A stretch of 62,854 nucleotides of DNA, counting the filler, from Nemertoderma westbladi (lineage: Eukaryota; Animalia; Xenacoelomorpha), in NCBI GenBank assembly GCA_032718475.1. It is 3 parts of 3 records of this genome, joined end to end, with 100 filler letters (N's around TTAATTAATTAA, not from the genome) between each part and the next. Parts side by side here need not be neighbours in the genome. Positions count along the whole stretch, not along the records: positions 31,598 to 56,234 come from JAUCBJ010008620.1; 2 more parts are not named here. One strand, 5' to 3'. The position numbers and the translations under genes were made by a program. The notes beneath the pieces were generated by a model. It worked only from the letters and a program-made list of their open reading frames with translations, made no database searches and was not told the DNA's origin. Below are positions 15,658 through 58,909 of this stretch, in pieces (positions within the stretch are counted from its first letter, which is position 1; every line of letters begins with the position of its first letter).

Positions 15658-16210
15658 TCAACAATTTTTTCGCGCACCAACCCTATTTATTCTATATAGA
15701 ATCATTTTGTTGTATATTTTTGCAGCTACCACAAGCAGACAGATCCCACGATAGTTTGTTGGTATACCGAGGTCTCCTTTCTTGGGGAGTAGCTTTAGTT
15801 GACCTTTAGTCCAAATTGGTGGAGGCTTTTCCCCATTTAACATCCGGTTGCAAACATCCAATAATGGTCTGTTAAGCACTCCTGTTTTCAATACCTCTGC
15901 AGGGATTACATCTAATCCATTTGCTTTATGATTGGACATGCTGTTAATACTTCTTTGGAGTTCGACGGGTCTAAAGTCCCCTGTTTCTATAGGTAGTGTC
16001 TTGTCATATATTTTCCTTATAGGGCTGACCTCAATGGTTGGTGGCTGCCCAAGCAAGTTGCTGAAGTGATCTCTCCCTTTCCCAACACGTTCTTCAAGAC
16101 TATCAACTTAGAGGCGCCCCTTTGCACAACTGTTCCGACCAGATACCTCATTTACAGTTTGCCAGGTAAGTCTTGATCGTTGCTGTATGTGAGCTGTTGT
16201 AATTTCTTCA
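15658..16210 (-). mobile_element. RTE LINE fragment (RT N-terminal region)
   Basis: KANGLDVIPAEVLK..LPKKGDLGIPTNYRGICLL. Closely similar to the copy at ~21200-21700. Confidence 0.9.
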
Positions 16211-16298: not shown

Positions 16299-17650
16299 TT
16301 AACGCTTAAGGAATATACAGGAACAACAAAGCAGCAACCCCCCCCCCCCCCCCCTCACACCTGCTCGCCCACCCCAGACAACCACCCCATAGACTACATG
16401 CACATGGTGCACATGCTCAAGCATACCATCCTTTGAGCTTATGCTCATCCGATCAGAGACTTGCTGAGGACTTTCAAAGTTAACTGTCAGAATTTTGGTC
16501 TTTCTGGAGTTAATAAAAAGACCAACACTAGAAGCAGCATGTTCTAATGAGCTGAGGAGCCGTTGGGCTCCCTCTACTGATTCTGAGAGTACTCCTAAGT
16601 CATCAGCAAAGTCTAGATCAGTTAGGTACTTGGCAGGATTTCCTCGACTTCTGGAGCCAGTAGGTGGAGTTATCATCACCCCATCATCATTATAATTATC
16701 TAAGGACATGCGTAGAACATAGTCAACCACAATAATGAACAAGAATGGTGCAAGTGTGTCTCCTTGGAGGACGCCCCATAACACTTCAAATGGTTCTGTG
16801 TCACCGTCAACAGTAGACACAAATGTTGTCGAACCATCGTATACTGATCTGATTGCTGCAATAATTTCATCAGGAATCCCATATAATGAAAGTATGCTGA
16901 ACATACGTGAGCGAGAGACTGAATCAAAGGCATTGAAGAAGTCAACAAAGATAACAGCCAGATGCCTGTCTTTCTTTTTTGATAACTCTTCAATTATCCT
17001 TCTAAGTGCCAAAATGGGCTCCATGGTCCCACGACCTTTACGGAACCCATTCTGATTTCCACGGAGCAGTCTCTCAATGGGATCCCTGATGCGATTTAAT
17101 AGAATCCTATTGTATAGCTTTGCAGCAATCGAGATCAATGAGATTCCCCGAAAAGAACCATAGAGTGTTAGGTTGCCCTTCTTGGGAACTGGCACCAACT
17201 TATTTGTTTTCATTTCTTGTGGGACTCTTGTTGTTCGGTACATGTCTACTATGATGGAATAGATGAGCTTTAAACACTCAGGTATTTTAAAGACCTCAGG
17301 GGGAACACCATCTACTCCACTGGCACGATTAGTCTTAATGCTCTTTGCAGCAGCCTTCACTTCTGCAAAGGAGATATCGCCAATGGGAATATCTGGGAGT
17401 ACAGACTCAGACACTTTTACTTCTATAAAGTTATCAGGCAATACCCTGTCATTATTGAGGAGCTTTTCAAAGTGGGCTTTCCAACCATTGAGACGATCGG
17501 CTGGTGATTCAGCCTTAACCTTGGTGGTTGGTTGGCTTTTCCGCCCAGTAAGCAGATTGATCGAATCTTCGAATGTTCGAAGCCCCTAATAGCTGTCTAT
17601 GATATATCTGCAATTGGACTATTGTTCATTTTTTTGGTATGTTCATACAA
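16299..17650 (-). mobile_element. RTE-clade LINE reverse transcriptase fragment (second family)
   Basis: 380-aa ORF with QNGFRKGR, VDFFNAFDSV, GVLQGDTLAPFLF and LDFADD motifs; 3' truncated. Confidence 0.92.
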
Positions 17651-20069: not shown

Positions 20070-22793
20070 TTTACAAACAGGGTGACATGGTCGCTCTAGC
20101 AATGGAATATAACATCGACATCATCTGCATCCAAGAACATCGGATTTGTCATGAAGACACTGCCATGAAGTACAATGACATTGGAAATGGATGGACGTTA
20201 GTAACAAGCTCAGCAGTAAGAAACTCGGCCAATGCATCTATTGGAGGAGTAGGAATTCCACCAAGTCCATTTGCACTTAAGACCCTAAACAACATCGAAT
20301 CTATAAATTCCAGGGTTATGATAGCAACATTTGAGGGGGAATCCCAAGACAACAGTAATATGTTGCTACAGTCCAACCAATGCCTCAAAACCAGAACAAG
20401 CAGTCAAGTGTTATGAAGATCTGACTGGACTTATAAAGGACATTCCGAAACACAATGTTAAAGTCATTGCTGGTGACCTGAATTCTCAAATTGGCCCAGA
20501 AGACATCAAGGGTTACACATATAACACCAGTTCTAATAGAAATGGGCACTTACTTTTAGACCTAATGGAAGAATGTGTATTGATACCAACAAACACCACA
20601 TTCAAAAAGAGTAAGTGGAAGCTATGGACCTTTCAATACCCTAATGGAACCAAAGCAAAACTGGATTACATCCTTATAAACAAAAAGTGGAGAAACAGCA
20701 TGATCAACTGCGAGGCATACAGCTTGTTCAACCTAATCGGTTCGGACCACAGAATTGTGACTGCAGAGATCAGACTCAGTTTGAGAGCCAGCAAACCCAG
20801 TACAAGCAAGCAAATCAACTATGACTGGGAGAAACTCAGAACTGATAATGCAGTAAAGGATGCTTACACAGTAGAAGTTCAAAACCGCTTTGAAGCACTT
20901 CAGTCAATGGATGAAGACCAGTCCACCGATTCAATATACCAGAATATAATAAATGCCCACAAGGAATCAGCTAAGAGGCATATCCCCCAGAAACCCAAAC
21001 GAAAACAGTATGTGCCATGGCAAAACTCTGAGGTTACTTGTAAGAGAGAAAGATCTTAAGATAGCCTACAAAGTAAAAACCGAACAAACAACAACCGAAA
21101 ACTTTAACAAGGTTGAGAAAGCTAAGGATAATCTTAAATTGGCCTACAACATCAGCCAGGAAAAGTACATACAGGATAAAATTGAAGCAATTACAACTGC
21201 TCACATACAGCAACAATGTGTGGCAAACTGTGAATGAGGTATCTGGTCGGAAAAGTTGCGCAAATGGGCGCCTTAAAGCCTATAGTCCCGAAGAACGTGT
21301 GGGGAAGTGGAAAAATCACTTCAGCAACTTACTTGGGCAGCCACCAAACATCTAGGTCAGGCCTACAAGGAAAATATATGACAAGACACTACCTATAGAG
21401 ACAGGGGACTTCACACCTGCCGAACTCCAAAGAAGCATTAAAAGCATGTCCAATCATAAAGCGAGTGGATTAGATGAAATTCCAGCGGAGGTATGGAAAA
21501 CAGGAGTGCTAAACAGACCATTATTGAATGTTTGCAACCGGATGTTAAAAGGGGAAAAGCCTCCACCAATTTTGGACTAAAGGTCAACTAAAGCCTCTCC
21601 CCAAGAAAGGATACCTCGGTATACCAACAAACTATCGTGGGATCTGTCTGCTTGTGGTAGCTGCCAAAATATACAATAAAATGATTCTATATAGGATTAG
21701 GCCTCACATAGAGAAACTACTGCATAAGAGCCAAAACGGATTTCGACCAAGTAGGTCAACAATAGCTCAGATACTTGCACTGCGGAGACTGATTGATGGA
21801 ATAATCGTAACAAGTAGCAAAGAATGGTGATGGAGACCAGATGGTGAAACTGAGTTTTTCTCAATCCTGGCTGGCGTACTGCAAGGTGACACATTAGCAC
21901 CATTACTATTTGTAATTGTGCTGGATTACGCAATGAGGATTGCCACAAAGGGTGAAGACCTGGGATTCACACTTCAAGAACGCAGAAGTAGTAAATATCC
22001 GGCAACTACAGTCACAGACACCGACTTCGTGGATGATATCGCCCTGCTCTCTAATACGCTAGCAGAGGCACAGCTTCTACTAAATAACGTGGAGAGGGCT
22101 GCTGAGGAGGTTGGATTGTATATAAATGCTACCAAGACCGAATTCATGACTTTTAATGTTGACTTGACAACCATTGATAATAATCAACTAAGGAAAGTTG
22201 ACGACTGATGATGATGATGATTCGTAATTCCAGTACCTAGGATCATGGATAGAGAGTAGCAAATAGGACATAGAAGTTAGGAAAGCAAAGGCTTGGGTAG
22301 CTCTATCAAAAATGGATACCATCTGGAAATCAGATCTCCCCAGGCACCTAAGACTAAGTTCTTTCGAGCCACAGTGGAAAGTGTATTTTTATACGGGGGT
22401 AAGACCTGGACACTGACTAAATCACTTGAACAACGAATTGATGGTTGCTATACAAGACTACTAAGAGCAGCCCTAAACATCAGCTGGAGACAACACATGA
22501 CAAATGCCGAGCTTTATGGTACAATACCACCTGTATCATCCACCCTCCGTGAACGCAGATTAAGATTCAGTGGGCACTGCTGGCAAGTAAAGATGAAGTC
22601 ATACCAGATCTAGTTTTCTGGCAACCAACTCATGGAAAGCGTAGTCGTGGATGACCACCCATAACATATATAGATCAACTTGAAAGGGATACTGAACTTG
22701 GGAGAAACGAAATTGCGACAACTATGGAGAATCGGGAAGCCTGGAAGGATCTCATTTCCACTGTCCGAGTTCGCTCGACTTAGTAGTAGTAGT
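20070..22793 (+). mobile_element. Near full-length, frameshifted RTE LINE (AP endonuclease + RT)
   Basis: IDIICIQEHR, CYSPTN, AGDLN, LDYIL and SDHRIV (APE); GVLQGDTLAP and DFVDDIAL (RT); C-terminal LRFSGHC; (TAG)n tail at 22781-22793. Confidence 0.93.
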
Positions 22794-24995: not shown

Positions 24996-25265
24996 ATGGC
25001 ACCATCAAGCATTACCTTATTAATATTATTATTTATCATTGTGGGAGTGGTGTTTGAGACCGTGGGAAGTCAGTACAGGAGTCTAGATCAATCGGTTACA
25101 GAGGAAATTCGTAAGGTTTATAGTTGTGGCGATTTTACAAGCAATATCTTACCGATAATGAGTGCTGTTTGCAATAATTGTTTCGCTAGAAGAACTAGAA
25201 GGCAAGCGCCAACACTATTTAGGACGACACGGGTAACGAGAAGCGAAGAAACAAACTTTGAAAGG
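24996..25265 (+). CDS. Insulin-like peptide precursor, exon 1 (signal peptide, B chain, C peptide)
   Basis: Hydrophobic signal, RK, B chain VYSCGDFTSNILPIMSAVCNNC, RRTRR and RVTR basic sites. Phase-0 donor AGG|GTTAGT at 25266. Confidence 0.85.
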
Positions 25266-25681
25266 GTTAGTTATCCTGTAATGCTAATAAATAATTTATA
25301 CTGTGGAAGATCATCCAAGATGGTGCTCGAACAGGGATTCCTTGGCTTAATGAACCTAAAAGGATCTCCATTCATAATAAAATATAGCAATTACAGTGAG
25401 CAAAACAGTATTCAGTTACAGTATAGCAAAACAGATTATTATTTTACTGCAAGGCCAATGCGAGAGTGTTGGAGTTATTTAGTGCTGAAATAAATATATC
25501 CACGAAAAACGTTAGCCTTGCTTTGTGGTGCTCTAGTAGGCGTTAGGTTCATTCTCATTAAATTTAAATGATTAATTCTTCTCAAATGTCATTTCCGTTT
25601 GGATGGTGCCTATTGTGTTATTATGGACATAAAAAATTTGGATATTGAATTATTTACAATAATCCAATTTTACTATTAATA

Positions 25682-26340
25682 GGTCGGGCGAACTCGGACA
25701 GTGGAAATTAGGTCCTTTCAGGCTTCCCTATTCTACATAATTGTTGCAATTTTGTTTCTCCATAACCCAGTACCACTTTCAAGTTGGTTTTTATATAGCC
25801 GGTCGTCCGTGGCAACGCATACCTACCATGTGCTGTTTGCCAGAAAAGTAGATCTGGTATGACCTCATCTTTACTTCTCCAGCAGTGCCCACTGAATCTT
25901 AATCTGCGTTCACGGAGGGTGGTTGATACAGGTGATATTGTACCATAAAGCTCGGCGTTGTCATGTGTTGTCTCCAGCTGATGGTTAGGGCTGCCATTAG
26001 TAGTCTGTGTAACAATCATCAATTCGCTGTTCAAGTGATTTCGGTACTATTGGTCTTCAGGTGCCTGGAGAGGTCTGATTTACAGATGGTATCCATTTTT
26101 GATAGAACTACCCAAGCCTTTGCTTTTCTGCACATATTATATCCATTAACCAAGGTACAGAAAGTCCCTTCATCGTTTTTGAGATGATTATCATCGATGA
26201 TGGTCAGGCTTCCATTAACATTAACAGTCATGAATTCTGTTTTGGTAACTTTTTTATGCAATCCAATAATCCAAACCCCTGCACAGCCCTTTCAACGTTT
26301 AGTAAAATTCCGCATCAGCTAGCACATTAGAAAGTAGGGG
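25682..26340 (-). mobile_element. RTE LINE 3' fragment in the insulin-gene intron
   Basis: NAELYGTISPVSTTLRERRLRFSGHCWRSKDEVIPDLLFWQ; same family as 20070-22793. Confidence 0.88.
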
Positions 26341-27117: not shown

Positions 27118-30100
27118 CCCTATTTAACCCGTGGGGTCAACATGACCCCCCCCCCCGTGGTTTTTTGTTATAACTCTGAAACAAACGCAGTTGAGAATCT
27201 GAAATTTTATGCCTTTTCTTTAAAATCTATTCCCTTCCTAATTGTAAAAACAGTATTTAAAATTTTGGGAAGTTTTCGAGTTATAGCACCATATTTTTTG
27301 AGACGTTATTTAAAAGTTCGATTTCATGAAATATGATTTGTTATTCCCCATTAAAAACTGTTTAAAATAACAATACAATGGTGGGCTATGTAAAAAAATA
27401 TCCGAATTCGCCCTAGGGAAAATATAACCAGTTATTAATCCCATCCCGCTTTTGGTAGCTTAGTTACATCCTATCAATTAGAATATAATAATAAAATATA
27501 AAATATTCGCATATTAATAGGTTCCATCCACTAGCTACCATGGTTACAATTCACAACCACTTTGATTATAACTTAAGGCAGCGACAGTAATGTACAGAGG
27601 CGCTTGCATATGCATATGTGGAAGAGGTATATTAAATCTGGAACTGATTTTAAAGATTGAGACCTGATAAAATGAGGGAGCAGAGTTCTAGAAATTCACA
27701 TTTGTTGCAATTCCTTCAATGATCAAATGTCCCTTTGATATTCAAGCAACTGAATTTTACGGTAGCTATGTTTTAGGTAAGCATAGCTATTATTTTCGAC
27801 ACTGGTTCCGTTCTCCTACTTTCCCGTAAAAAAATTTTATCGTAGCACTTGTTAATTTTTATCTATAATTTCAATTTATAATGCAGTAGTTCCTTTTAAA
27901 AAATATTATTCTAGAAGGAATACCGTTTTGACTAGAGTTCCGTATAGCACTACATTTTTGAAACATATTTCATTGTTACATGGCAACGTTGAAGAGTTGT
28001 AGAACAAATGAAAATAATTATATACTATTCTAAACCATAAATAAAATAAAATAATATTACGTTCTAGAACATATAGCTAGTTTATTTTTAATTTTAAAAT
28101 AGCTAGTAAATTAAAAAAAGTATATAAATGAATTTCTGAATACATTTAAATGAATATTGAAAATTGTTATATTTCTAACATATACCGGTAGCTAGTTTTT
28201 TTTAATTAAAATACCTAGTAAATCAAAAAAATAATTTTTAAATAAATTTCTGAATAGGCCAACATTTAAATTAATATTGAAAATTACCAAAGCCCCAAAC
28301 ATTAATAAAACAATTTTTATATTTTTTTAAAATTACAAGCTAATTAAAAATTGAAAAATAACTAGCTATATGTACTAGAACGTTATATTATTAATTTTAT
28401 TAAGTTCTAGAATAGTGTATAATATTTATATTTTGTTCTAGAACTCTACAATGTTGCCATGGTAACCATGATTTATGGTATAAAAATGTAGTGCTATGCG
28501 GATACGGAACTGTTACCTTAGTTTTAATATTTTCTACGTCAAGAGTCAGTCCCCAAATCTGCAAAACTGTTATAACAAAAGTACGTTATTCAAGAAAGAT
28601 CGATCGCTAAGGAGACGGGTTGTTGGACGCAAATCCCATCTCGGCGAATTTATATTTCGTCTTAATGTTAAATTAAAAATTAAGGGAAATTAGCTTTTAC
28701 AATTGCACTCTATTCTAACCAAAACAATAAGTTAAAGACAATAGAACAGGTTACAGTTGTATTTTTTAGGCGTAATCAGCTGTTAATTGCGTCGATTTTA
28801 CCCTGGAGCGGTATAAAGGTAAAAAAAGTAAAATGTTTATTCGGCCGTTAGGCCTGGGATTACGTGCAAAGTCGGGCGACCTATTTCCAGTGCGGGCCCC
28901 CTCGAACTACTGCATACTCCACAGAGGAAAAGCCAGTACCGGTACTCATTTGGTCATTGCAAGAAAAAATGCGCCCTTGTTACACCCGCTTTTTATTGCG
29001 TCGAAAGTCCCCTTATCTGTAGCTGGGAAATAAATCTGAGAAATAGAGCTATAAAATTTACGCTATTACCTACTATATAAATACATAATTTAATAAATGT
29101 ATTGATTGCTCTACTGCGCAGAAAGGCCACATATGAAAGCATTAAAAATGACTGAAATAATAGACATAAAATAAGATTACTGAAATAATAGACATAAAAT
29201 AAGATTACTGAAATAATGTCTACCATAAGTCATAGTCGTTGAATTAAATCGTATCAATATAGGAAAAGAATAGTGATAAGAATATATATGCATAGTTATT
29301 TCCCCCAAAAAATACCACGCCCCATTTTTAATCAACTCCCCCCAAACAAAACCCTTTTAGAAATGTTTGAAGCCTTAAGAAATAAATTACTCGTAGGTGA
29401 GTGAAGATAATGGGGAATAACACACTTATTACCCTATTATTGAGTTATTTTCCCGGTTATTTAACCCGCGGGCAGGAAATAACCCGAGGGCGAAGCCCGA
29501 GAGTGTTCCTGCCCAAGGGTAATAAATATAGTTACATCTCTATATTTGTTTGATTTGGGCCGGGTTTTTGGTGTTGGTGCTGGATTAGATGGAATTCATA
29601 TAAAATAAGCTAGAAATTTCAAATTTATTTTTTCGGCGAATGCCAACTTTTGGATTTCAAAATATGTCAGTTTTGTAAATTGATTGTTTGAAACTGTTTT
29701 TTGCGCAATATTATCAAACTTGTATTTTTCGGTGCTGTGTGCGAATTTGGTGCCAGCACGAAATTTTTAAAATCCTTTCAATAGTTCAATTCATTGTGAT
29801 AACTTATTTTTCTCGCATTTTAATGGTTTATGGGTGTTCTGAATTCAATGGAATGAAGCAGAAATACAGCGTAAGTATTATCTTAAACTAGTATTTATCA
29901 GAAGTGGGTGCAAAATTTGGTGCTAGCACCAAATTTTGAAACCCATCAAATATATCAATAGATTGTGTCACCTTGTTTCTAGCGTGATATATGGGTTTGT
30001 AAGATTTCTGAATTCAATGGAATAAGAAAAAATTGCATAACAGTTCTTAAACTTGTATTATTCGGCGCTGAGTGAAACTTTTTGTGCAATTTGTGTGCAT

Positions 30101-30714
30101 TTTTGAAAATTAGAAAATTTATAGCATCATCTTGTTTCTTGCGTAAAAAACAGCACTGGACATCTCAAACTTGTACTTTTTAGTGATGGGGTGCAGGCAT
30201 CAAAATTTGCCATATTACGCCGAAAAACACGAGTAGCAATGATCTGCAAAATTAGAATTGTATTTCATTAGAATCAGCCTGAGTACACCTGAAAATGTGA
30301 ATTTTATAGAATTGTATAAGTCAATTTTAATTTTTGTGTTCAAAATGAAAGTGCTGGTTACCGGTACTTGTTTTTTCATTTTTTTGCCTACGCAGTGGAC
30401 TGAAACTGTGACTGAAATTTATAGTAATCAGTTCATTTTTTAATATTTTCCAATGGATTTAGCGCCACAGAAAACCTGCATTGAAAAAAGATTAGGTGAA
30501 AATTGCGAATTTTGGTGCCTCAAAATAACCACCCCAGTAAATTTTTTCGAAATTTTTGTTTTCGTTCTCATTCGGACAAGTAAAAAAAAAAAAATCAGGC
30601 GTTTTCGTTAAAATTTGTAGATTTTAGAAGGGGGGGGGGGGGGGGGTTGTCAATATGCACCCCCCTCCTCCCCCGGGAGTTTGTATAACATTTTATAGAC
30701 CGGTACTAATAAGG
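27118..30714 (-). mobile_element. Non-autonomous piggyBac-type element, interrupted by nested insertions (~27350-29530)
   Basis: Starts TTAA-CCCTATT. Both ends are the reverse complement of the element at 39960-42073. Confidence 0.7.
27935..28512. mobile_element. Palindromic AT-rich MITE
   Basis: Ends agttccgtatagcactacattttt / aaaaatgtagtgctatgcggatacggaact with long inverted arms. Confidence 0.65.
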
Positions 30715-39959: not shown

Positions 39960-42073
39960 CCCTATTAGTACCGTGCTATAAAATGTTGTACAAATACCGG
40001 GGGGGGGGGGGGTCATATTGACCCCCCCCCTTCTAAAATCTACAAATATTTACGAAAACTTCTGATTTTTTGTTTGTACGTAGGTATCACTTGTCTGGAT
40101 CCGACCGAAAAAAAAAATTTTCGAAAAAATGTACTGGGGTGGTTATATTGCAGCACCAAAATTACAAGTAGTGCACAATTTTCACCAAATTTGAAAGTTA
40201 CATTTTCGGCTAATTATTTTTCAATACAGGTTTTCTGGGGTGCAAAATACATTGCAAAATATTAAAAAATGATATGATTACTATAAATGGCTGTTTAGTC
40301 CTCTCTGCGTAAGAAAAAAATGAAAAAAACATGTAACCAGCACTTTTCAGTTAGAACACAAAATTTTTAATTCACTTATACGATGCTATAAATTCACAAT
40401 TTCAGGTTTTCGAGGGCGCTGATTCTAATGGAATACATTTCTAATATGCCAGATCATTGCTACTTGTATTTTTCGGCGTAATTTGGCAAATTTTGGTGCT
40501 AGCGCCAAATTTCGTACCCATCACCAAAAAGTACAAGTTTGCGATGTCCAGTGCTGTTTTTATTGATTCCATCAGATTCAGGACCCTCATAAACCAGACA
40601 GACACAAACCAGAAACAAGGTGATACTATCTACTTATCAATTTGCATATTTTCCAAAATTTGGTGCTGGCACAACAATTTTCACCCACCGGCGAAAAATA
40701 CAAGTTTGAGAACTCTTATGAAATTTTTACTGATTCCATTGAATTCAGAACCATCACAAACAAGGTGACACAATCAATTGATATATTTTATTGTGACGGG
40801 ATCCGAGAGGATCCCGGTTTATCCGGTGTCGTTTATGTACGCGTCAGGCCGCACCATGTGGTTGGAAAAGAGTTTGTGTTGTTCTAGTGTTGTTGTTAAT
40901 GATATAAGATATATATGTGGTACAATGTACAGATGTAGGTACAATAGCAGATAGCGGTAATACACGTTAATAGACCGGTAATATGGGTGACGGCGGCGAC
41001 GGTCTTAATTGTCACCGTACTGCTGTGACTGCACTGAGATAACTGAATGAATGATACACAACTGGTAGTATATATTGCACAGTTGGCCATATTGCTTTAC
41101 CCAGTCGATGCTCCCCCCCCCCTATTGGCTAATAACCCTGTTGGCGCCCTCTGCCTCCCTTGGAGGGCTTCCCTTTGCCCCTGTTGCTCTCTCTCTCTCT
41201 CAGGGGTATAACCCCTGACCCTCATTGTGTGTGTGTGTGCCTTTCTCCTTCCCACTTTGTTGGGGTGACACGAGGTTGATTGCTCACCCTCGTGTTCCCC
41301 AATATTGCTTAACGGCTCACTTTATGGGGTGGTTAGCGGAATTGGATAAGCTAACATTTATGGTTTTCAAAATTTGGTGCTAGCACCACATTTTGTACCC
41401 ACATCCGAAAAATACAAGTTTGAGATGTCTAGTTCGATAATTATATTTTCCATTGAATTCAGAACTGCCATAAACCTCTAAAACGCAAGAAATAAATTGT
41501 CACAAGCAATTTTATCTATTGAATGGATTTTCAAAATTTCGTGCTAGCACCAAAATTTGCACACAGCACCGAAAAATACAAGTTTGATACGCTTGGTGAA
41601 ACTCGTATATATCTCATCGAATCCAGAAACCCAAAAAACCCCAATTGCGTAAAAAATAAGTTTCAAACGATCAATTTACAAAATTGACTTATTTCAAAAT
41701 TTGGTGCTGGCACCAAAATTTGGCACCCACCGAAAAAAACAAGTTTGAAATTTCTAAATCAATTTATATGAATTCCATCAAATTTCTAACTCCAAAAAAC
41801 CGGTGTAAATCAAAAATAGAGATGTTACAATTCATATTTAATGAAATGTAATTTTCAAAAAACGTCTCAAAAAAGTGCCAAAAGTAGGGTTAAAAATGGT
41901 GCTATAACTCGAAAAGTACCCAATATTTTTGAAAACCGTTTTCACTACTAGGAAGACAATAGATTTTTAGGAAAAGTCATAAAATTTCAGATTCCCAACT
42001 GCGTTTGTTTCAGAATTATTCTAAAAAAACCACGAAGGGGTCATATTGACCCCCCCCCCCGGGTTTAATAGGG
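39960..42073 (+). mobile_element. Non-autonomous piggyBac-type element
   Basis: TTAA|CCCTATTA...TAATAGGG|TTAA, subterminal ggggtcatattgacccc palindromes at both ends, and internal ~130-bp-scale repeats. Confidence 0.85.
40792..41356 (-). mobile_element. Solo LTR of the BEL/Pao family
   Basis: TGTGACGGG...GCTAACA flanked by a 5-bp TSD TTTAT on both sides; homologous to the LTR at 47800-48339. Confidence 0.93.
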
Positions 42074-47799: not shown

Positions 47800-48339
47800 T
47801 GTGACGGGATCCAGGAAGGATCCCGGTTTACCCGGTTTGTCAACTCACGCGTCCCCGCCGTGTGTGAAAGATGAAAGAGTTTGTGTTGTTCGTCGTACGT
47901 AATATTCGAGGCGTATAATATAGATATGGATAATAAGATGTGATATATTGTTGTACACTGAAGGCGGGAGATGGTAATTGAAGTCCCGGTACTTCCCTAG
48001 CTAAACTATTACTACTGTAACACCAATAACTAACACTGAGATAACTGAATGAAATGATTACTGCCAACTGGTTATATTGCACGGGTTGGCCTTGTTACTG
48101 TACCTAATCGATGCCTTTCCCCCCTCTGATTGGTTGATGTCCCTATTGGCGCCCTTTGGAGTGTTTCCGTTCACTCCACCTGTTGTCCCTCTGTTAAGGG
48201 TTTGGCCCCTGACCCTTATTGTGTTTCTCCTTCCCATTTTGTTGGGGTGACACGAGTTGTTTGGTTACCCAATCTCGTGGCCCCCAATATTAATGGTTGA
48301 CTTTAAGGGTTTGTGTTAGTGGAATTGGATAAGCTAACA
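47800..48339 (-). mobile_element. 3' LTR of BEL/Pao retrotransposon (540 bp)
   Basis: Minus strand TGTTAGC...CGTCACA, preceded by polypurine tract GGGGGGGAG (48340-48348). Confidence 0.93.
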
Positions 48340-49041
48340 CTCCCCCCCATGCTATCTTCCCGGTGAGAAGATAGCATCCACCTCAAGTGCACTACAATTC
48401 CGCTGGATCCCGATCTATTATCGGGTGTGGGGTGGAACTATTTTCTTTCGGAGCCGGCTTTCCAGGCCGCTCCCTATGGGTATGATATCGCTACCCGTTT
48501 CGCCTGGCGTCCCATGTCGGGCCGATCGTGCGCTCCTCACACGACTTTTGTTTCCCCAACACTTCGCCACTTTAACTCTACTCTGTTCTCACCCTGACTC
48601 TCCTCTACTTCTCCTCACTACTGCTCTAACTCTCGGACTTCCCTGTCCCTCACTCAGCCTCTTATTCCTCCCACACATTTGAATTGCATTCGCAATTTCT
48701 CTGCACTCTGCACTATCACCACTTACTCGACCTCCCTTTGACTACCCCATCCCTTCTAACGAATCTCACTCCCCCTTTGTGCCGTCGCACTCAAGAAATG
48801 TGAAGTCGTCTGGTGTCTCGTCCATAGTACCATAGTCAGTTAGCCCCCCAGTCCCAGTAGCTAATTGAGAAAGGTTGAATGACTATAGTACTTACTTCGA
48901 ACGTATATTTTATTGCTAAACTACTGATTACTACGTACGTACATATAATTGCACTTATTTAATTATTTGCATCAGTTTGAATTTGTACTTAATAGTTCGT
49001 ACGTCCCACGTGGCGCCTTCCAGGCGTACCACATTGAAGTC

Positions 49042-51447
49042 TCAGTTCATCCCCCCTGACTTTGGGAACCACCTCAAGTCTTTCCCTTTGCCGTCCTCCT
49101 CCCTGGGTCGTTTCCTGGTCACTACCGCTCCTCTGGGATCCGCTTTCTGTCTTCGGACCCTCGCCGCCACCTCCTTACTGATCCCGGTCGTTGGCTCCCT
49201 GGGTGCTGGTGTTATCAGCTCCCGATATCGCTTCGCGGGTGGCCCCTCCAAGTGGCCCTGTTGTCTCCCCCTGGTGGCGTCCCATATGATCATCTTCATT
49301 GCCCGCAGCATGTGCTCCGCCAGGAAATCCCTAAACTCCCCTCGGTTCTGTGGCGTCCACCTGTCCAAATACCTTCGTGTATTCATCACCCCGGCATACG
49401 ACGCAGCCGTTGCTACCTCTTGATAGGTAAACGGTAGCCTCCGCTTTATGATTTCCATGTGAGCCTCCTGATTGATAAGGAAGAAACCCCACTTGAACTC
49501 CTGGGCCTTCATGCGCTGGCGCGTCATGGCCCCGACGTCAGCCCACTCCTCGAATCTTCTGAACTTCTCTTCGTCGTCCATCCAGTCGTACTGGCGTCCG
49601 TAGTGTCCCCGAAAGTTGCACTTCGGACATCGGTTATGCAACTGTGGACACGCCCCCATCCTGTGGCTCGACTCGCGGCAGTAGAGACAAAAGGTTCCCT
49701 TTTGGAACCGGTACAAACAGCTCCTTTCCTGGTGGGTCTGTCTCCCACAGTAGTCGCAACCGAGTACCAATGTCTCCCGCCCCACGTAGTCTTTCGTCCC
49801 AAGCGATCTCCGCGGTCTGTGGAGTCGCTGGTAGGCGAACTTCTGCACGTTGGTGTCCCTGTCTACGTCGATCTCTCCGCCCCTCTCGGGCATCGTCTCC
49901 CCGAATACTACCCGTGGTGCCGTCCCCGGTTGCTCGCCCAACCTGATAGTGCTCCCCGCGAAATCCATCGCCGGCTCCTCGTGCACCCAGGCCCGCTTGT
50001 CGGGTCTATCCCAGAAGGCCCTCGCCCCACTGGCCGTCACCACCCTCCCGCCAACCCAGTCCGTGTCCGAGTGGCCAATCCTCTCGATGGGCGGCACCCC
50101 TCCGAACTCGTCGTCGTCTTCCTCCTCCTCTGGCAGTGGCTCCAACCCCGGTATCCCGATGGATCCACTATGTCCCTTTCCGCCTTGGCTCTCGCCCGTA
50201 GCTCTCCATCCCTCTAGCTCCCTTAGCTTCCTTGGCGGTTGGTCGCCTTCGGCGCCCGCTGGTATGGGCATCGCTTGCAACCCCGACGTCGACTGTTTCG
50301 GCGATCCCACCGTCCATCCCAATTCTCGCCCTAGAGACTCCCCCGAACTCCCTGATGAAGTCCAACGAAGTTCGTCTAAGCCTGCCTGTTCCTCGAAGCC
50401 GTAACTCTGCGTCCTGGCCTCCTCCTCCCTCTCCTCTGCTTCTATCCTCTCCCGTCTAGCGACTTCTTCCAGTCGCTTTGCTTCTCGTCTATCCGTCTCT
50501 AGCTGCTCCCATCTCTGATACGGCGTATCTGTCTCCCCGTCTATCAGATGTCGGCTGTTGTAGTACACCGACTCGCCCTTCAGCCCCGGGTGGTCTACCA
50601 GACCGTCGAAGGCCGTTTTAAAGGCTCTCCTGTAGCTTAGGGGTGATCCCAATAACAGAAATGCCGCTGGTTCCCTCTCGATAACCACGATCATGAATAA
50701 GTTAAGCAAACTTATCATCATCCAATCTTCCTGCAGGATATATCGCTTCTGATATACCTTTATCGCTCCTCTGCGGAATTGATATACCTCCTGCTTTCCC
50801 GGTCTCGCTCCCCACTTTAGCGAGTTCGCTAGTTCTGCTCCATATTCCTCCCTGAACTTCCCCCAGTCCATCGGTTTGTGGCATACGAGCCCCAATAGTT
50901 GGCCCATTGCCACCGCCCCGCATTGGCCTGTGTTCCCGACTACCCCCAACCCATCTGGTGCCGTCATAGCCATGAAGACCTTCTGCATATCCAGGAGGTT
51001 GGTGGCGTCCGGACCGATGATTCTCTCCGCATCCTCGCGAATCGCCGATCCCACTTTCGTCGTCGACTTCTCTCTTACCAAGACTTGCACCGCTTTTGGC
51101 AACCGGTTTAATTTCGGCCCGTCCTTCTTCCCATACGTTCCTAGATCGAATAAGAAGATGTCCCCATTTGGCGCGGCCAAATGCAGGAGTATGGTCCTGG
51201 CCGACCCCGCTGATCCTCGTCTCGAACCCTCCTCGTCTTCCACGGTTCCCTCGTCGTCTAGGATCATATATCCTCCCCTGTTGACGGACTCTATGAATCT
51301 CTTCCAATCCTTCCTCGGTGACTCCCTCGGGTACTTCTGAATCCCGAACTTCGCCTCGTCCCCTTTCACCACGTAGTGGAAGTGTTGGAAGATCGCGTTG
51401 TCCAGCGACGGCGTGCCGTAGGTCCCGACCAGCCGCTGTTCGTGCAT
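49042..51447 (-). CDS. Retrotransposon accessory protein: DEDDy-type 3'-5' exonuclease-like domain + acidic/coiled linker + CCHC zinc knuckles (probable original start at 51606)
   Basis: ILDDEG (ExoI), LLHLAAPNGDIFLFDL, LPKAVQVLVREKSTTKVGSAIREDAERI (ExoII), NLLDMQ, KWGARP, QKRYILQED (ExoIII-like). Knuckles CDYCGRQTHQERSC, CLYCRESSHRMGAC and CPKCNFRGH. Confidence 0.8.
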   Translation of the reverse strand: MHEQRLVGTYGTPSLDNAIFQHFHYVVKGDEAKFGIQKYPRESPRKDWKRFIESVNRGGYMILDDEGTVEDEEGSRRGSAGSARTILLHLAAPNGDIFLFDLGTYGKKDGPKLNRLPKAVQVLVREKSTTKVGSAIREDAERIIGPDATNLLDMQKVFMAMTAPDGLGVVGNTGQCGAVAMGQLLGLVCHKPMDWGKFREEYGAELANSLKWGARPGKQEVYQFRRGAIKVYQKRYILQEDWMMISLLNLFMIVVIEREPAAFLLLGSPLSYRRAFKTAFDGLVDHPGLKGESVYYNSRHLIDGETDTPYQRWEQLETDRREAKRLEEVARRERIEAEEREEEARTQSYGFEEQAGLDELRWTSSGSSGESLGRELGWTVGSPKQSTSGLQAMPIPAGAEGDQPPRKLRELEGWRATGESQGGKGHSGSIGIPGLEPLPEEEEDDDEFGGVPPIERIGHSDTDWVGGRVVTASGARAFWDRPDKRAWVHEEPAMDFAGSTIRLGEQPGTAPRVVFGETMPERGGEIDVDRDTNVQKFAYQRLHRPRRSLGTKDYVGRETLVLGCDYCGRQTHQERSCLYRFQKGTFCLYCRESSHRMGACPQLHNRCPKCNFRGHYGRQYDWMDDEEKFRRFEEWADVGAMTRQRMKAQEFKWGFFLINQEAHMEIIKRRLPFTYQEVATAASYAGVMNTRRYLDRWTPQNRGEFRDFLAEHMLRAMKMIIWDATRGRQQGHLEGPPAKRYRELITPAPREPTTGISKEVAARVRRQKADPRGAVVTRKRPREEDGKGKDLRWFPKSGGMN

Positions 51448-52082
51448 CTCCCGGAAGTGATCCTGCAGCGCTCATGCCGCGTGACCCTTTTCCAACCTCT
51501 CGTAGTATCCTCTCGTCTTCTCTTCCGGATGCCTCTCGGTGAAATCCACCAGTATCTCCTTTCCTCCTGACTCCGCCTTTCTCTTTCTGATCAATTTGCT
51601 CGCCATTCCGAACACTCACTCGCTCACCTGTAAGGTGGTGTCTTACCAATGCGCAATACAGATGAGTGATGTATCTAAGATGTTCTGTACGGTCCGATAA
51701 TGGCCTATTTCCTATCTAATGGCGCCTTTTAGTCTAAATTCTTACTATTTAATTCCCTAGCTAATAAATGAGCCTAATTTACAATTTCTGTCCGTTACTT
51801 TAATTATGTTCCAGAATTTTCTTATCGCTGTTACCATAATTTGTAATTCTTAGCCCTTTTTCTTATTTATTCTAATTTATTTTAACCCTACTGTCTTACC
51901 ACTTGCTACTGCCTATGGATTATTCTATCTCCTAATCCACATTCTGGCCTACTCTGTGGGCCTGTGCAGTACAGCAGTATATGTCGCGCGGCCTACACGA
52001 TCTATACAACTGTACTCATATGCCCCCCTCTCGCTACTAACTGCTAATTAATATCTATATTATATACCCTTCTACCTCTTAC

Positions 52083-52545
52083 TCTCTCTCTAACTAACGG
52101 TACTACGTACCCTCTAACTCTCTAACTAACGGTACTACGTACCCTCTAACTCTCTAACTAACGGTACTACGTACCCTCTAACTCTCTAACTAACTAACAG
52201 TACTACGTACCCTTTAACTCTTTAACTAGCGGTACTACGTACCCTCTAACTCTTCTCTAACTAACGGTACTACGTACCCTCTAACTCTCTAACTAACGGT
52301 ACTACGTACCCTCTAACTCTCTAACTAACTAACGGTATTACATACCCTCTAACTCTCTAACTAGCGGTACTACATACCCTCTAACTCTTCTCTATCTAAC
52401 GGTACTATGTACCCTCTAACTCTCTAACTAACGGTACTACGTGCCCTCTAACTCTCTCCTAACTAGCGGTACTACGTACCCTCTAGCTCTCTCCTAACTA
52501 ACGGCACTACGTACCTCCTAACTAACTAAGTAACTCTAGATACTA
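52083..52545. repeat. Minisatellite inside the retrotransposon, ~32-36-bp unit TAACTAACGGTACTACGTACCCTCTAACTCTC, about 13 copies
   Basis: Direct inspection; lies between the pol stop and the accessory ORF. Confidence 0.93.
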
Positions 52546-52708: not shown

Positions 52709-55700
52709 CTAAGGTGCCCCTTCTAACAGACAGCATTTCCCTACAGCTCTCCTGTAGGTTTTTCTGTCCTTCGCACCTATCTTACCACCTATCCGCATTT
52801 CTACCGATCGGACTCTTCCGTCTTCGTCGGAGTAAGTGCCTACAACTCTCGCCAACCGCCATTGGTTGTTGATGAAAGTATCATCCGTAACGATTACGAG
52901 ATCTCCCTCTCTTAACTCTCTATTCGGCTTCCTCCCCTTGCTTCTTTTATGGAGCGTGGGTAGGTATTCTTCTACCCACCTCCTCCAATACTCTGCGCTT
53001 ATTGCTTTAGCGACTTTCCAACTCTGGCGGGAGTGTATGTCATCTAGGTCTACACCCCGCATGTCGATGGTCGCTGGCCTTTCCATTAGAAAATGGCTGG
53101 GTGTCAGCACATCTAATGACTCAGGGTCATCATTCTCCGGATATAGCGGTCTACTATTAATGATCCCCTCGCACTTCGCAAGCACTGTCCTTAAGACGTC
53201 CTCAGTGACCATGTGGGTGTTCATTAGCTTCGTCATTAGACGCTTTGAACTGCCCACCAGTCTCTCGACGCATCCTAGTGTATGTGGTGCATACGGCGTC
53301 CTTCTCTCCCACTTTACTTGTCGTCGTCTCATGGCCGCCCTGACTTCCTCCCCTTCCAAGATGTCCAAGGCCTCTGCCATCTCATTCTCTGCTCCCACAA
53401 AGTTGGTTCCGCTGTCGGAGTACATTACTGCGATCGTCCCACCTTTGCGGTCTCTGAATCTATCTAATGCATTAATGAATGCTGATGCGGTTGCATCTTG
53501 GGCGAGTTCTATCCCTACCGCCCGCGTGTTGTTACATACGAAGATGATACCGTAGCGTTTCTCCGTGTGCCGCATCACCTTGATCTTTATCGGCCCGAAC
53601 ATGTCCACACCGCAATGTGTAAATGGCGGGTCGTGCTGTCTTACTCTACTCGCCGGTAGTGGCGCCATCTCTTGTATGGCTCGCTCCTTCTTCGCTCGTC
53701 GGCAGGTCTGGCACTGCCCCACTACCGCTTTTACCTTCTTCCTCAACTGCTTGACCCAAAAGGTCCTCCTTATCTCCGTGAGAGTTCTGTTGGTGCCCCC
53801 GTGCAATATCGACTTATGGGAGTCCCAGATAATCTGGTGGACTATTGGCGATCCTGTGGGAATGATGATGGGTTTCGGTGGTACGATTATGCTGTTGTTG
53901 TATCCCACCCTAGAATTCATTACTAGAATCCCGTCATCATTAAGTTGTGGCGACAGCGTGATCAGCTCGCTGTCCTGTCGAAGGTGCTGTTGGTTACCGA
54001 TGCGTTCCACCTCGTCGCCATAGTTCTTCCGTTGTTCATAGCGGATGACTGCCTTGGCCGCTCCTTCCAGATCTATGGTTGTCCTGATCTTCTTGTCTTT
54101 GCCAACTCCCGCGAGGAAATTCCCGAAGGCTCTCCAGTACGCCACTAATTTCTTGGTCTTATACCAACTAGAGCTGTAGCTGAGGAGTTTATCTGTCGGG
54201 TTATCGCACAGTTCTTCTGATTTAGGTTGCACGTCCCTTATCTCCCTCACCATCTGGGAGTATATCTCTTCTCCCTCTGAATCTCCCTCTTCTCCTTCTG
54301 ACACTACCTCTCCTGAGTCCGGGTCCACCTTTCTCATCGGCGGCCAGGCCTCCTTGTCGCTCAGAAACTGCGGCCCGTGTTGCCACAATCTTTCCTTTTT
54401 TAAGAAAGTGTGGCGTGCCACGCCCCGTGATAACAAGTCCGCTGGGTTCTCATCCGTTGGGCAGTAGTGCCACCTTTCCAATTCTGTGGTCGCCCTTATC
54501 TCGTCCACCCTGTTCGCGACGAATATTGGGTATCTCGTCCTTTCGTTATGTAGCCAACCAAGCACTACCATGGAGTCCGTCCAGTAGTGTGTCTCCACTA
54601 TGTTGGGAATAGTATCCACTAGGTAGGCTGTGGCTCTAACTCCTAGTCTCGCTGCTGTCAATTCTAACTTGGGAACTGATGCTGAATCTGGCGGCGTTGA
54701 CTTTGCTTTGCTAAAGGCCAGTCTGGGCTTGTGAGCCCCCTCTCGTTGTACTAAATAGAGTACCGCTCCGTACGCCTCCAACGACGCATCGGAGAACATG
54801 TGTAGGTCCAGATTCGTCATGTTCCCATCCGGGAAATACACTCGTGGCATGTCGTATGTTCCCATCTTCTCCAATTCTCCTGTCCACTTACTCCACTGTT
54901 TCTTGATTTCCTCTGGTACCTCTACGTCCCACTCATCCTTCAATTTGTATACTCTCTTGAGTATCTGTTTCCCCGTGACTAATAATGGGGATGCTAGGCC
55001 TAGGGGATCGTATATCCTTGCTATATACGATACATAGCCCCTCTTCGTGTGGATGTCTGCGCCCTCCTGGCTCAGCTGATACTTCAGTTCGTCTGTCTCT
55101 CTGTTCCACACGATTCCCAATGCCTTCTGTTGAGATTCTGTTCTCTTGTTCGCCATGTCCTGCCCTTTGGCTGTTGTGGGATTATCTATGGTCGATTCTG
55201 GTCTCTTGTCCTCTATCGCCTTGATAAATTCTTCCGAACTGGATTGGAATTTGGTCAGGTTAAAGCTGGATCCTTTTAGGATGTCGCGAACCTTGCGCCC
55301 TGTGTCCAGTATCTCCTTAACCGTATTTCCAGACTCCATTCCGTCATCTACGTAGAAGCCGCGTCGAATCATATCGACGGCCCTAGTGCTGTATCTATCT
55401 TCCTTCCCCTTCACTGTATCTCTCACTGCCATAGTCGTCGTAAATGAAGACGACTTGGCTCCCATGTTTTGTACTACCATCTTATATGCAGGTATTATCG
55501 ACGGTTCTTCCTCGCCGTTGTACCATAAGAAGCGTTGACTGTCGCTATCTTCCTCCGTTACACGGACTTGGTTGAACATGCCTTCTATGTCACACGTGAA
55601 GGCGTGTTTCCCATTCCTAAATCTAAGTAGGACCTCTATGCCCGAGTTGTATATGTTTGGACCTTCTAACAGATAGTCGTTTAAGCATTTTCCGTTGGTC

Positions 55701-56234
55701 TTTGCCGATGCGTCAACTACCATCCGCAGTTTACCTTTCTTTGGGTCTAAAGCCACGTGGAGTGGCAGGTAATATGTCCTGTCCGTGTTCGGTTCATCGA
55801 CCGGTAACTCCACGGCCCATCCTTTCTCGACGTACTTCTTAATCGTTCTGTGGATGTACTCATTCTTCTCGGGGCTCCGTTTTAGTGTTTGTTTCAGCTT
55901 GCGGAGTCTCGTGAGTACCATCCCTCTATTATTGGGCAGTGGTATCTTCGGTAGTTTCCATACCATTCCTATGGTGTACCGCCCCTCGTCGCACTTCATA
56001 GACTCCTCTACGCTCTGCTGAGCCTGTTTGTCTTCCACCGAGGTCCCGACCCCGGTCTCCTTTAATCCTTCAAAATCCTGTCTGAGCAGTCTTTTAAGTT
56101 GCTCCTCTGCTCTCTCATCACTCATTTCCTGCATAATTCCCGCGAACATGCATCCTGATGTCTCCGACATCCTAAATGGTATCTTGATCTTGATTGGGCC
56201 ACTTAGCGTCCACCCGAATGGTGTCAGTATCGCC
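52709..56234 (-). CDS. pol: BEL/Pao Pol polyprotein (RT, RNase H, integrase, C-terminal DUF5641-like); open to the gap
   Basis: YYLPLH..KLRMVVDAS..LNDYLLEGP, FYVDD, LHMFSDASLEAYGAVLY, NPADLLSRG, H..LHGG..C..C, GVDMFGP, SDSGTNF and YWRRWVEEYLPTL; no stops. Confidence 0.97.
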
Positions 56235-56334
56235 NNNNNNNNNNNNNNNNNNNNNNNNNNNNNNNNNNNNNNNNNNNNTTAATTAATTAANNNNNNNNNN
56301 NNNNNNNNNNNNNNNNNNNNNNNNNNNNNNNNNN
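56235..56334. other. Assembly gap with TTAATTAATTAA linker
   Basis: N-run / linker / N-run. Confidence 0.97.
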
Positions 56335-57830: not shown

Positions 57831-58802
57831 ATGAAGTTCTTTATTGAAATTGTAACCTGGAACGTGGCTATGCAACTCCCTAATGAAACCCTTAATGAAT
57901 TACTTCTGAACAGAAACTCAGAAAATGAAGCCGATTTGATAGCAGTTGGATTACAAGAATACCAAGTGTTTCCAGTGAACCAGATCTCCCAAATGATAGA
58001 CTGGGACCCTTGGACAGGCGCCTGTATGCAGGCCTTACGTCGGAGAAAATATGTACTCGTTAGACAAGTGAAACTCTTAGGGATGTTACTAAATATATTC
58101 CTGCGACAAACACACATCCCTTATATGTGCGAGATGGCCACGTCTTCCGTTAACCTCCTGCAGTGGCTCCGTCCGACTAGCAATAAAGGCAGCGTTATAT
58201 TCGCGTGTTCGCTCTACGGCCAACCCGTATGCTTGGTCAACTGTCACCTACCCCCAGGTCCTAGCAACTGGGACAGCCGAAATGATTCCTACCAAGTTAT
58301 TAAGGATACAACTCTTAAAGGGCGGACTATTCTCGATCATAACATTGTTTTCTGGTTCGGTGACTTGAATTATAGAATTCACACATTGGGTAACGAAATT
58401 GTAAGAAAAGAAGTCTCATCCAAGGATTATCGCAACCTTATAGAGAGCGATCAATTATTAGTCTCAATGAATATGGGCAGCGCATTTTGTGGGTTTAGCG
58501 AAGGTCCGATAGTTTTCCAACCGACTTACAAGTACGACATAGATACGGACAGGTTTGACACGAGTGATAAAAAGAGGATTCCAGCGTACTGCGACAGAAT
58601 TCTGTTCTTGGATAAACTCGGTATTGTTTCACTAAAGGAATACAAATCATTTATGAGTTACAAACACAGCGACCACAAACCCGTGCGTGCTCGGTTCTCG
58701 GTGGTGTTTGAAACGGCGTCGCAGACACCTGTTGTTACGTTCTCACGGTTGAGTTACTGGTTCAACTCTTTGAATCTCGATGTGTTTTACAATATAACCC
58801 AG
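57831..58802 (+). CDS. INPP5K: Inositol polyphosphate 5-phosphatase K/J-like, exon 1 (catalytic domain)
   Basis: VTWNVA, AVGLQE, NKGSV, VNCHLP, WFGDLNYRI, PTYKYD, PAYCDRIL and SDHKPV. Phase-0 donor CAG|GTAATT at 58803. Confidence 0.9.
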
Positions 58803-58909
58803 GTAATTTCGGTTCACTTTTCTGGACAGCTTTATGCACATATATAACGCTACTAGTTATATATACCGCAGTTAACTTAATAATGTTTCTATCGTTTCTA
58901 CTTTTCTAG

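What the first reader, a model, noticed from the sequence alone, without database searches (positions are those of the whole stretch)
49042..51606. BEL/Pao retrotransposon carries a DEDDy exonuclease-zinc-knuckle accessory gene where env would be
Seen in sequence: an uninterrupted 801-codon ORF lies between pol and the PPT/3' LTR, on the same strand as pol, with no signal peptide or env-like architecture. Residues ~55-255 follow the order and spacing of WRN-exo/EXD2/Mut-7/RNase D motifs (D64-x-E66, LLHLA..FLFDL, KVG..I..D139, W..RP, Y236-xxx-E240-D241). Two intact CCHC knuckles and one degenerate knuckle follow, with basic NLS-like ends. Established: Mut-7/Nibbler and EXD1 of this family act in small-RNA/piRNA pathways, and RNase D-like exonuclease ORFs are known as captured genes in bdelloid rotifer retroelements. 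I do not know of this exonuclease + knuckle fusion in a Pao element. Inference: an element-encoded RNA nuclease or decoy that counters small-RNA silencing, or one that processes or proofreads element nucleic acid.
Basis: partly seen in the sequence, partly recalled or inferred. Interest (0 to 1): 0.88.

Follow-up and report, generated by a model that had tools for sequence, protein, structure and literature searches.

The report
BEL/Pao exonuclease–zinc-knuckle third gene
Where an envelope gene would sit, a large and old group of BEL/Pao jumping genes carries a selection-maintained gene for an exonuclease-fold domain joined to a triple zinc knuckle, which likely grips RNA 3' ends, probably to blunt the host's small-RNA silencing; the copy in this window is broken.

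Summary
The gene is real and belongs to the element family. ORF3 lies between a Pao pol and the PPT/3' LTR and has no hydrophobic segment. It really starts at 51606 (854 aa); this copy has a private stop at codon 45, so the 801-aa ORF is its downstream part. The N-terminal domain is a DnaQ/DEDDy exonuclease fold: the family profile hits EXD2 (E 9e-11) and the model matches Nibbler (Z 14.0). Catalytic positions are D64, E66, D139, Y236, E240. Among other copies in the same organism, 32 of 36 family variants shown are synonymous. A zinc-motif scan of metagenomes found 120 or more loci; 30 of 33 with at least 5 kb upstream carry a Pao-like pol, only 25-32% identical to this one in the core compared. 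Pol and exonuclease distances track each other (Mantel rho 0.84). The catalytic acids are intact in 14 of 34 domains and lost in 15, which form one clade and stay under purifying selection (dN/dS 0.04-0.32). So binding matters as much as cutting. DEDDy ORF3s are described in rotifer Juno/Vesta elements; I found none described for BEL/Pao. The target is untested.

The parts
49042..51606 (-). ORF3, 854 codons, broken in this copy by one in-frame stop at codon 45 (51472-51474); the 801-aa open part is 49042-51447
50665..51309 (-). DEDDy/DnaQ exonuclease domain (aa 47-261 of 801; D64, E66, D139, Y236, E240)
   Evidence: leave-query-out HMM 88 bits; EXD2 E 9e-11; Nibbler Z 14.0, rmsd 3.2, 200 aligned
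49777..50403 (-). Acidic/Gly-rich linker predicted disordered (aa 349-557, pLDDT under 50)
49378..49776 (-). Zinc domain: three Cys/His knuckle-type sites plus a conserved helical cap (FE..AD.G..T..R...WGF...Y); third site degenerate in this copy only
51628..51640 (-). Candidate splice acceptor (CCACCTTACAG, AG ending at 51628) about 20 nt before the ORF3 start; untested
   Evidence: sequence; no RNA run available
52075..52534 (.). Tandem array (32-nt unit, about 13 copies) in the pol-ORF3 spacer
52709..56170 (-). BEL/Pao pol (RT, Pao RNase H/Peptidase_A17, integrase, DUF5641), cut upstream by the assembly gap
48340..48361 (-). Polypurine tract
47800..48339 (-). 3' LTR candidate (TGT...ACA, 540 bp); its partner is not in the assembly
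56235..56334 (.). Assembly gap that hides gag and the 5' LTR

Best explanation
This is a broken copy of a selection-maintained third gene of an old BEL/Pao lineage, coding for an EXD2/Nibbler-fold DEDDy exonuclease domain linked to a triple zinc knuckle, which likely binds RNA and engages its 3' end, most probably to blunt host small-RNA silencing. Shown: position, fold, catalytic residues, purifying selection, co-inheritance with pol, and a catalytically dead but constrained clade. Inferred: the protein is intracellular and made from a separate (probably spliced) message; the knuckles hold single-stranded RNA and feed the 3' end to the nuclease pocket, as the zinc-finger domain does in trypanosome RNase D; active versions (including this family) would trim the RNA, dead versions would cap or sequester it. 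Least certain: that the RNA is the host's piRNA/siRNA or its precursors rather than the element's own RNA.
For: Fold and motifs. No hydrophobic segment in this ORF (max KD19 1.63) or in 13 of 14 relatives' ORF3 frames tested. Selection: 32 of 36 family variants synonymous against 33.6% expected, P 8e-12; dN/dS 0.09-0.50 in 9 intact pairs, 0.15-0.20 in 3 partial pairs and 0.04-0.32 in 9 dead pairs. Linkage: 30 of 33 loci with at least 5 kb upstream hold pol on the same strand; all 12 long pol or gag-pol frames scanned are Pao type. The dead domains form one clade in both the pol tree (99/99) and the exonuclease tree (99); Mantel rho 0.84, 19 elements. Accessory rather than core: ICTV lists only gag, pol and env for the family (PMC8742986, whole text), and catalysis or the whole domain can be lost. 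Nearest structural neighbours act on small RNAs: Nibbler, TbRND, EXD1, Egalitarian. TbRND's zinc fingers drive RNA binding and cleavage (PMC7797062, abstract and section 13).
Against: No activity, expression or target data. The structural hits include DNA-acting enzymes tied within 1 Z unit (WRN 13.1, apicoplast polymerase 13.4, diDNase 13.7), so RNA over DNA is not settled by fold. No sign of an arms race: between close elements the domain is as conserved as pol (0.81-0.89 against 0.81-0.87). The zinc domain resembles nucleocapsid knuckles, which fits work on the element's own RNA equally well. Rodriguez et al. favour auxiliary replication roles for rotifer DEDDy ORF3s (PMC5408684).
Confidence: 0.42

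Rival explanations
1. The protein serves the element's own RNA or particle: the knuckles chaperone or package genomic RNA and the exonuclease pocket trims or protects its 3' end, or (dead versions) carries it to the germ line as the pseudonuclease Egalitarian does.
For: Knuckles match Lin28 and retroviral nucleocapsid; strict co-inheritance with pol; slow evolution; Egalitarian is among profile and fold hits, including its complex with I-factor RNA.
Against: Gag of these elements should already supply nucleocapsid (established knowledge; not checked here); most described BEL/Pao elements have no such gene; L022 keeps the gene between direct repeats with no pol, which fits a trans-acting role.
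Confidence: 0.33
2. The domain is a DNA exonuclease that proofreads or trims cDNA during reverse transcription, or destroys cDNA by-products that would trigger host sensing.
For: EXD2, WRN and polymerase proofreading domains are among the top hits; basic NLS-like ends in the sequence.
Against: 15 of 34 domains lack the catalytic acids yet sit in intact-looking elements and remain constrained; L047 and L059 have no detectable exonuclease domain; five of six elements whose 5' junction was printed show TGGCGCCCAAC or TGGTGCCGAAC right after the LTR, and a sixth (L068) has it a little further on, so there is no self-primer to trim.
Confidence: 0.15
3. A passenger: a captured host gene or nested insertion without use to the element.
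For: This copy is broken.
Against: Present across copies and in elements with pol cores 25-32% identical, under purifying selection. This copy's pol also carries private non-synonymous changes, as expected from decay after insertion.
Confidence: 0.02
4. An unconventional envelope or entry protein.
For: It occupies the env position.
Against: No signal peptide-like or transmembrane segment in this ORF; 13 of 14 relatives under KD19 1.8, the exception (L069, 2.51 at residue 68 of a stop-to-stop frame) not followed up; nuclease fold.
Confidence: 0.03

Closest known systems
DEDDy ORF3 of bdelloid rotifer LTR retrotransposons Juno and Vesta, and of Terminons (PMC5408684, parts 1-3 of 5 read; PMC6431247, passages)
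   Same: RNase D-like DEDDy exonuclease as a separate gene downstream of pol, no TM or coiled-coil env features, function untested.
   Different: Those are rotifer clades with dUTPase-bearing pol, not described as BEL/Pao; motif DEED with acids intact; no triple-knuckle domain described (a Cys-His-Cys motif is noted); no selection test on DEDDy ORFs and no dead clade reported. Direct sequence comparison was not possible.
Trypanosoma brucei RNase D (TbRND; PDB 7c42-7c4c; PMC7797062, abstract and section 13)
   Same: DEDD exonuclease plus C-terminal CCHC zinc-finger domain that trims small RNAs; top Foldseek hit for both models (the latter only E 1.0) and profile hit E 1.6e-8.
   Different: Cellular mitochondrial enzyme; four fingers close to the nuclease; here a 200-1000 aa disordered linker and a helical cap with no structural match. 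Probably convergent architecture (inference).
EXD2 / WRN-exo / Nibbler (Mut-7) / EXD1 / Egalitarian
   Same: Same fold; EXD2 is the best sequence-profile hit (E 9e-11 and 1.7e-9), Nibbler the best structural hit; the family also has dead members (recalled for EXD1 and Egalitarian).
   Different: Only 11-17% identity; the EXD2 match covers the N-terminal half; none has this zinc domain; the donor cannot be named.
Belpaoviridae (Semotivirus) with env-like third genes (PMC8742986, whole text; PMC3118150, passages)
   Same: Gag-pol, PPT, LTR of 0.2-1.2 kb, optional third gene.
   Different: The third gene described is env-like; 'exonuclease' does not occur in the main text of PMC3118150.

Membership tests
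BEL/Pao (Belpaoviridae) | Pol with RT, Pao RNase H (Peptidase_A17), integrase, DUF5641 in that order | tested here: met
   12 of 12 relatives' long frames hit Peptidase_A17 and DUF5641
BEL/Pao (Belpaoviridae) | PPT before a TG...CA 3' LTR | tested here: met
BEL/Pao (Belpaoviridae) | Two LTRs, PBS, gag, target-site duplication | tested here: inconclusive
   lost in the gap in this copy; relatives show gag (DUF1759), paired repeats (L023, L013) and a tRNA-type PBS
DEDDy/DnaQ 3'-5' exonuclease (PF01612-like) | RNase H-like DnaQ fold | tested here: met
   Z 13-14 to Nibbler, WRN, RNase D; Foldseek E 3e-5 to 3e-4
DEDDy/DnaQ 3'-5' exonuclease (PF01612-like) | ExoI D-x-E, ExoII D, ExoIII Y-x3-D | tested here: met
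   D64, E66, D139, Y236 and E240 (Glu for the last Asp, as in 4 further homologues with Tyr); met in 14 of 34 loci, partly in 5, lost in 15
DEDDy/DnaQ 3'-5' exonuclease (PF01612-like) | Pfam PF01612 score above cut-off | tested here: not met
   no hit for this ORF; best homologue P0017 23.3 bits against cut-off 23.6, 2 of 40 proteins with any hit
DEDDy/DnaQ 3'-5' exonuclease (PF01612-like) | Metal-dependent 3'-5' nuclease activity | not testable with these tools
   needs an assay
Bdelloid DEDDy ORF3 pool | Groups with Juno/Vesta/Athena DEDDy ORFs in a tree | not testable with these tools
Host EXD2 / Mut-7 / EXD1 orthologue | Groups with one host family in a tree | tested here: inconclusive
   profile favours EXD2, structure ties Nibbler, WRN, NrnC/diDNase and RNase D; no host sequences were available for a tree
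env gene | Signal peptide and transmembrane anchor | tested here: not met
   max KD19 1.63 for the ORF, -0.43 for the first 43 codons

The most novel reading that the evidence does not exclude
An ancient BEL/Pao clade encodes its own piRNA-trimmer mimic: an EXD/Nibbler-type enzyme with a new zinc-knuckle RNA-gripping domain that destroys host small RNAs in some lineages and has become a catalytically dead decoy in others, a transposon-encoded suppressor of small-RNA silencing that replays the host's own active-to-dead EXD evolution.
Probability: 0.3. Interest if true: 0.92.

Novelty: new variant of a known kind. Interest (0 to 1): 0.74.

Why it matters
Animal retrotransposons are thought to have few ways of actively resisting small-RNA silencing, and the function of exonuclease ORF3s has been open since they were reported in rotifers in 2017. 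This family gives many intact natural homologues in active, dead and nuclease-less forms, with evidence of selection and co-inheritance with pol, so the question becomes directly testable. It also widens the gene set known for Belpaoviridae and adds a zinc domain with no structural match.

Tried and rejected
Single-sequence searches of the ORF found nothing: Pfam, word-indexed protein search (and with alignment A1), PDB sequences (one hit at E 0.36). The ESM Atlas held none of three sequences tried. No genome is held for the window. The search for related loci could not seed from A1 and found no relative in viral contigs. No RNA holder was listed, which says nothing about expression. The zinc domain model (pLDDT 77) had no structural match above Z 3.2 or Foldseek E 1.0; this does not prove a new fold. 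Homologue look-ups gave no names, so hosts are unknown. Profile A5 (eight loci with weak exonuclease hits) hit nothing in PDB but matched the exonuclease profile (probability 82%, E 1e-5). Self-priming with primer trimming, a lead from other notes, was rejected because the relatives read have tRNA-type primer sites. The IQ-TREE exonuclease tree did not finish and was replaced by FastTree; the window's element is a long branch in both trees and its place is unsure. Summed contig depth was not used as a copy number. Four look-ups of older papers failed. No complex was predicted because no partner is indicated.

Full report
Observation. The window holds the 3' two-thirds of a BEL/Pao element on the minus strand: pol at 52709-56170 (Peptidase_A17 E 7e-41, DUF5641, Integrase_H2C2), a 1.1-kb spacer with a 32-nt tandem array, a long second ORF, a polypurine tract and a 540-bp TGT...ACA LTR candidate. 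Gag and the 5' LTR fall in an assembly gap. The second ORF is open for 801 codons from 51447, but the frame continues to an ATG at 51606 with one stop at codon 45.

Other copies. Five public DNA runs of one coded organism hold the stretch or part of it; one may be the source of the window. Laying four of them gave thousands of variant contigs over both pol and ORF3. In the zoomed call (40 of 92 variant rows shown, three runs from two samples) the stop codon differs in 99.6-100% of laid depth and the internal ATG varies in 41-65%, so the gene is 854 codons and this copy is a pseudogene. Leaving out the stop row, 3 of 39 rows were private to this copy (97% or more in all runs) and 36 were family variants; 32 of the 36 are synonymous against 33.6% expected for transitions (P 8e-12, pN/pS about 0.06; 33 of 39 and 0.09 with all rows). 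Variants at codons D139, E240 and D241 are synonymous. Synonymous variants also occur at codons 3, 4, 7, 32 and 49, most upstream of the stop, which supports the longer frame. The codon at which the third knuckle breaks pattern is also a private difference.

The protein. Single-sequence searches failed, but the exhaustive search gave 60 proteins through the cysteine-rich region. Twenty-one longer ones aligned over an N-terminal domain as well; a profile made without the query scores residues 47-261 at 88 bits. The family profile hits EXD2 at E 9e-11, Egalitarian at 0.004 and WRN at 0.014. The AlphaFold model (mean pLDDT 58, confident in the two domains, disordered at 349-557) matches Nibbler (Z 14.0, rmsd 3.2, 200 aligned), diDNase 13.7, WRN 13.1, RNase D 13.0 and TbRND 12.6; Foldseek ranks TbRND and Nibbler first. 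The catalytic positions are D64, E66, D139, Y236 and E240; 12 of 21 homologues keep all five with Asp or Glu last (read). The C-terminal domain has near-invariant Cys/His in three sites plus a helical cap; it folds at pLDDT 77, resembles Lin28, TbRND and nucleocapsid knuckles by profile and has no structural match above Z 3.2. No transmembrane-like segment was found.

Distribution. Of the 80, 39 have a pol match upstream on the same strand; of 33 with at least 5 kb upstream, 30 do. The three others are a decayed locus (L012), a pol-less locus between direct repeats (L022) and a chance match in a pyrophosphatase gene (L071). Of 48 loci with at least 2.5 kb upstream, 41 have an exonuclease profile hit, and L051 shows the motifs by eye. 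All 12 long pol or gag-pol frames scanned are Pao type. Twenty-five pol cores are 25-87% identical (median 40%), form 22 groups at 80% and 14 at 60%, and are 25-32% identical to the window's. Caveats: 67 of the 80 contigs come from one accession series, so host breadth is unknown; loci were found by the zinc motif, so exonuclease-only versions could not appear; no host is named.

Active and dead forms. Among 34 full-length exonuclease domains from these loci, 14 keep D-E-D-Y-D, 5 keep part and 15 have lost the acids. The dead set is one side of a branch in the pol tree (99/99) and in the exonuclease tree (99), and pol and exonuclease identities correlate over 19 elements (rho 0.84, P 1e-4; kin share labels, so this shows co-inheritance, not co-evolution). 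Dead domains stay constrained (dN/dS 0.04-0.32 in 9 pairs; intact 0.09-0.50 in 9 pairs). L047 and L059, a separate pol clade, keep the zinc domain with no detectable exonuclease. Relatives show tRNA-type primer sites.

Mechanism. Shown: a conserved, non-membrane accessory gene with a DEDDy fold and a zinc domain, whose catalysis is kept in this family and dispensable elsewhere. Inferred: RNA 3'-end engagement by knuckles plus nuclease pocket, by analogy with TbRND, where the zinc-finger domain is needed for RNA binding and efficient cleavage (PMC7797062, abstract and section 13). I put counter-silencing first (0.42) because the gene is accessory, tolerates conversion to a binder, and its nearest folds are small-RNA trimmers. 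Handling of the element's own RNA is close behind (0.33) and is favoured by the slow evolution. DNA proofreading is weaker (0.15).

What is known. Rodriguez et al. 2017 (PMC5408684; parts 1-3 of 5 read) describe DEDDy ORF3s in rotifer Juno and Vesta elements and Terminons, state that none had been reported in retrotransposons before, and leave function open. The ICTV profile (PMC8742986, whole text) lists gag, pol and env only; PMC3118150 (passages) does not mention exonucleases. PMC6431247, PMC5029228, PMC11599104 and PMC11662393 (passages) added nothing on this point. Nine searches on the element side found no BEL/Pao exonuclease gene; the phrase 'BEL Pao' may miss 'BEL/Pao', and Repbase, Dfam, GyDB, subscription journals and supplements were not seen. 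I have an uncertain recollection, from no call, that nematode Cer elements were once drawn with an exonuclease domain near env; the papers were not held and this could lower the novelty. Unchecked notes of this scan report Rrp6-like or dead DEDDh ORF3s in Gypsy elements, which suggests repeated capture; none matched this sequence or the words BEL, Pao and exonuclease together.

Verdict. A real, old, selected accessory gene of BEL/Pao elements; a new variant of a kind known from rotifer LTR elements, with a distinct zinc domain and active, dead and nuclease-less forms. Interest 0.74.

Noticed in passing
L022:5187-10931: Exonuclease and zinc coding sequence plus a 396-aa ORF lie between two direct repeats with no pol match: a possible non-autonomous element that kept ORF3.
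   Followed up: partly
L047:3341-6529 and L059:6880-9648: Pao elements whose ORF3 has the zinc domain but no detectable exonuclease domain, with a long helical extension instead.
   Followed up: partly
L013, L062, L065, L068, L069 (5' junctions): Primer-binding site TGGCGCCCAAC, which I recall as tRNA-Lys type; the ICTV profile names tRNA-Arg or tRNA-Gly for the family.
   Followed up: partly
L051:1-4767 (-): A further 1589-aa open frame without Pfam hit follows ORF3 on the same strand.
   Followed up: no
P0001: Homologue with a degenerate exonuclease domain and two copies of the zinc domain.
   Followed up: no
window 52075-52534: 32-nt tandem array between pol and ORF3, variable in length among copies (joints).
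   Followed up: partly
window 15689-16164 and 21221-21697; ORFs 16299-17243 (-), 20565-21059 (+): Two inverted, 89% alike LINE-like copies; the first ORF hits RVT_1.
   Followed up: partly
window 24996-25493 (+): 165-aa ORF with a signal-peptide-like start, cysteines and RRTRR, inside long inverted repeats (22279-22791 / 25671-26129); no Pfam hit of note.
   Followed up: partly
window 57831-58847 (+): 338-aa inositol polyphosphate 5-phosphatase-like frame (Exo_endo_phos2 E 2e-65) beyond the gap.
   Followed up: no
window 29880-30638 and 40022-41742: Several inverted repeat pairs about 10 kb apart with short repeated units, possibly a foldback-type element.
   Followed up: no
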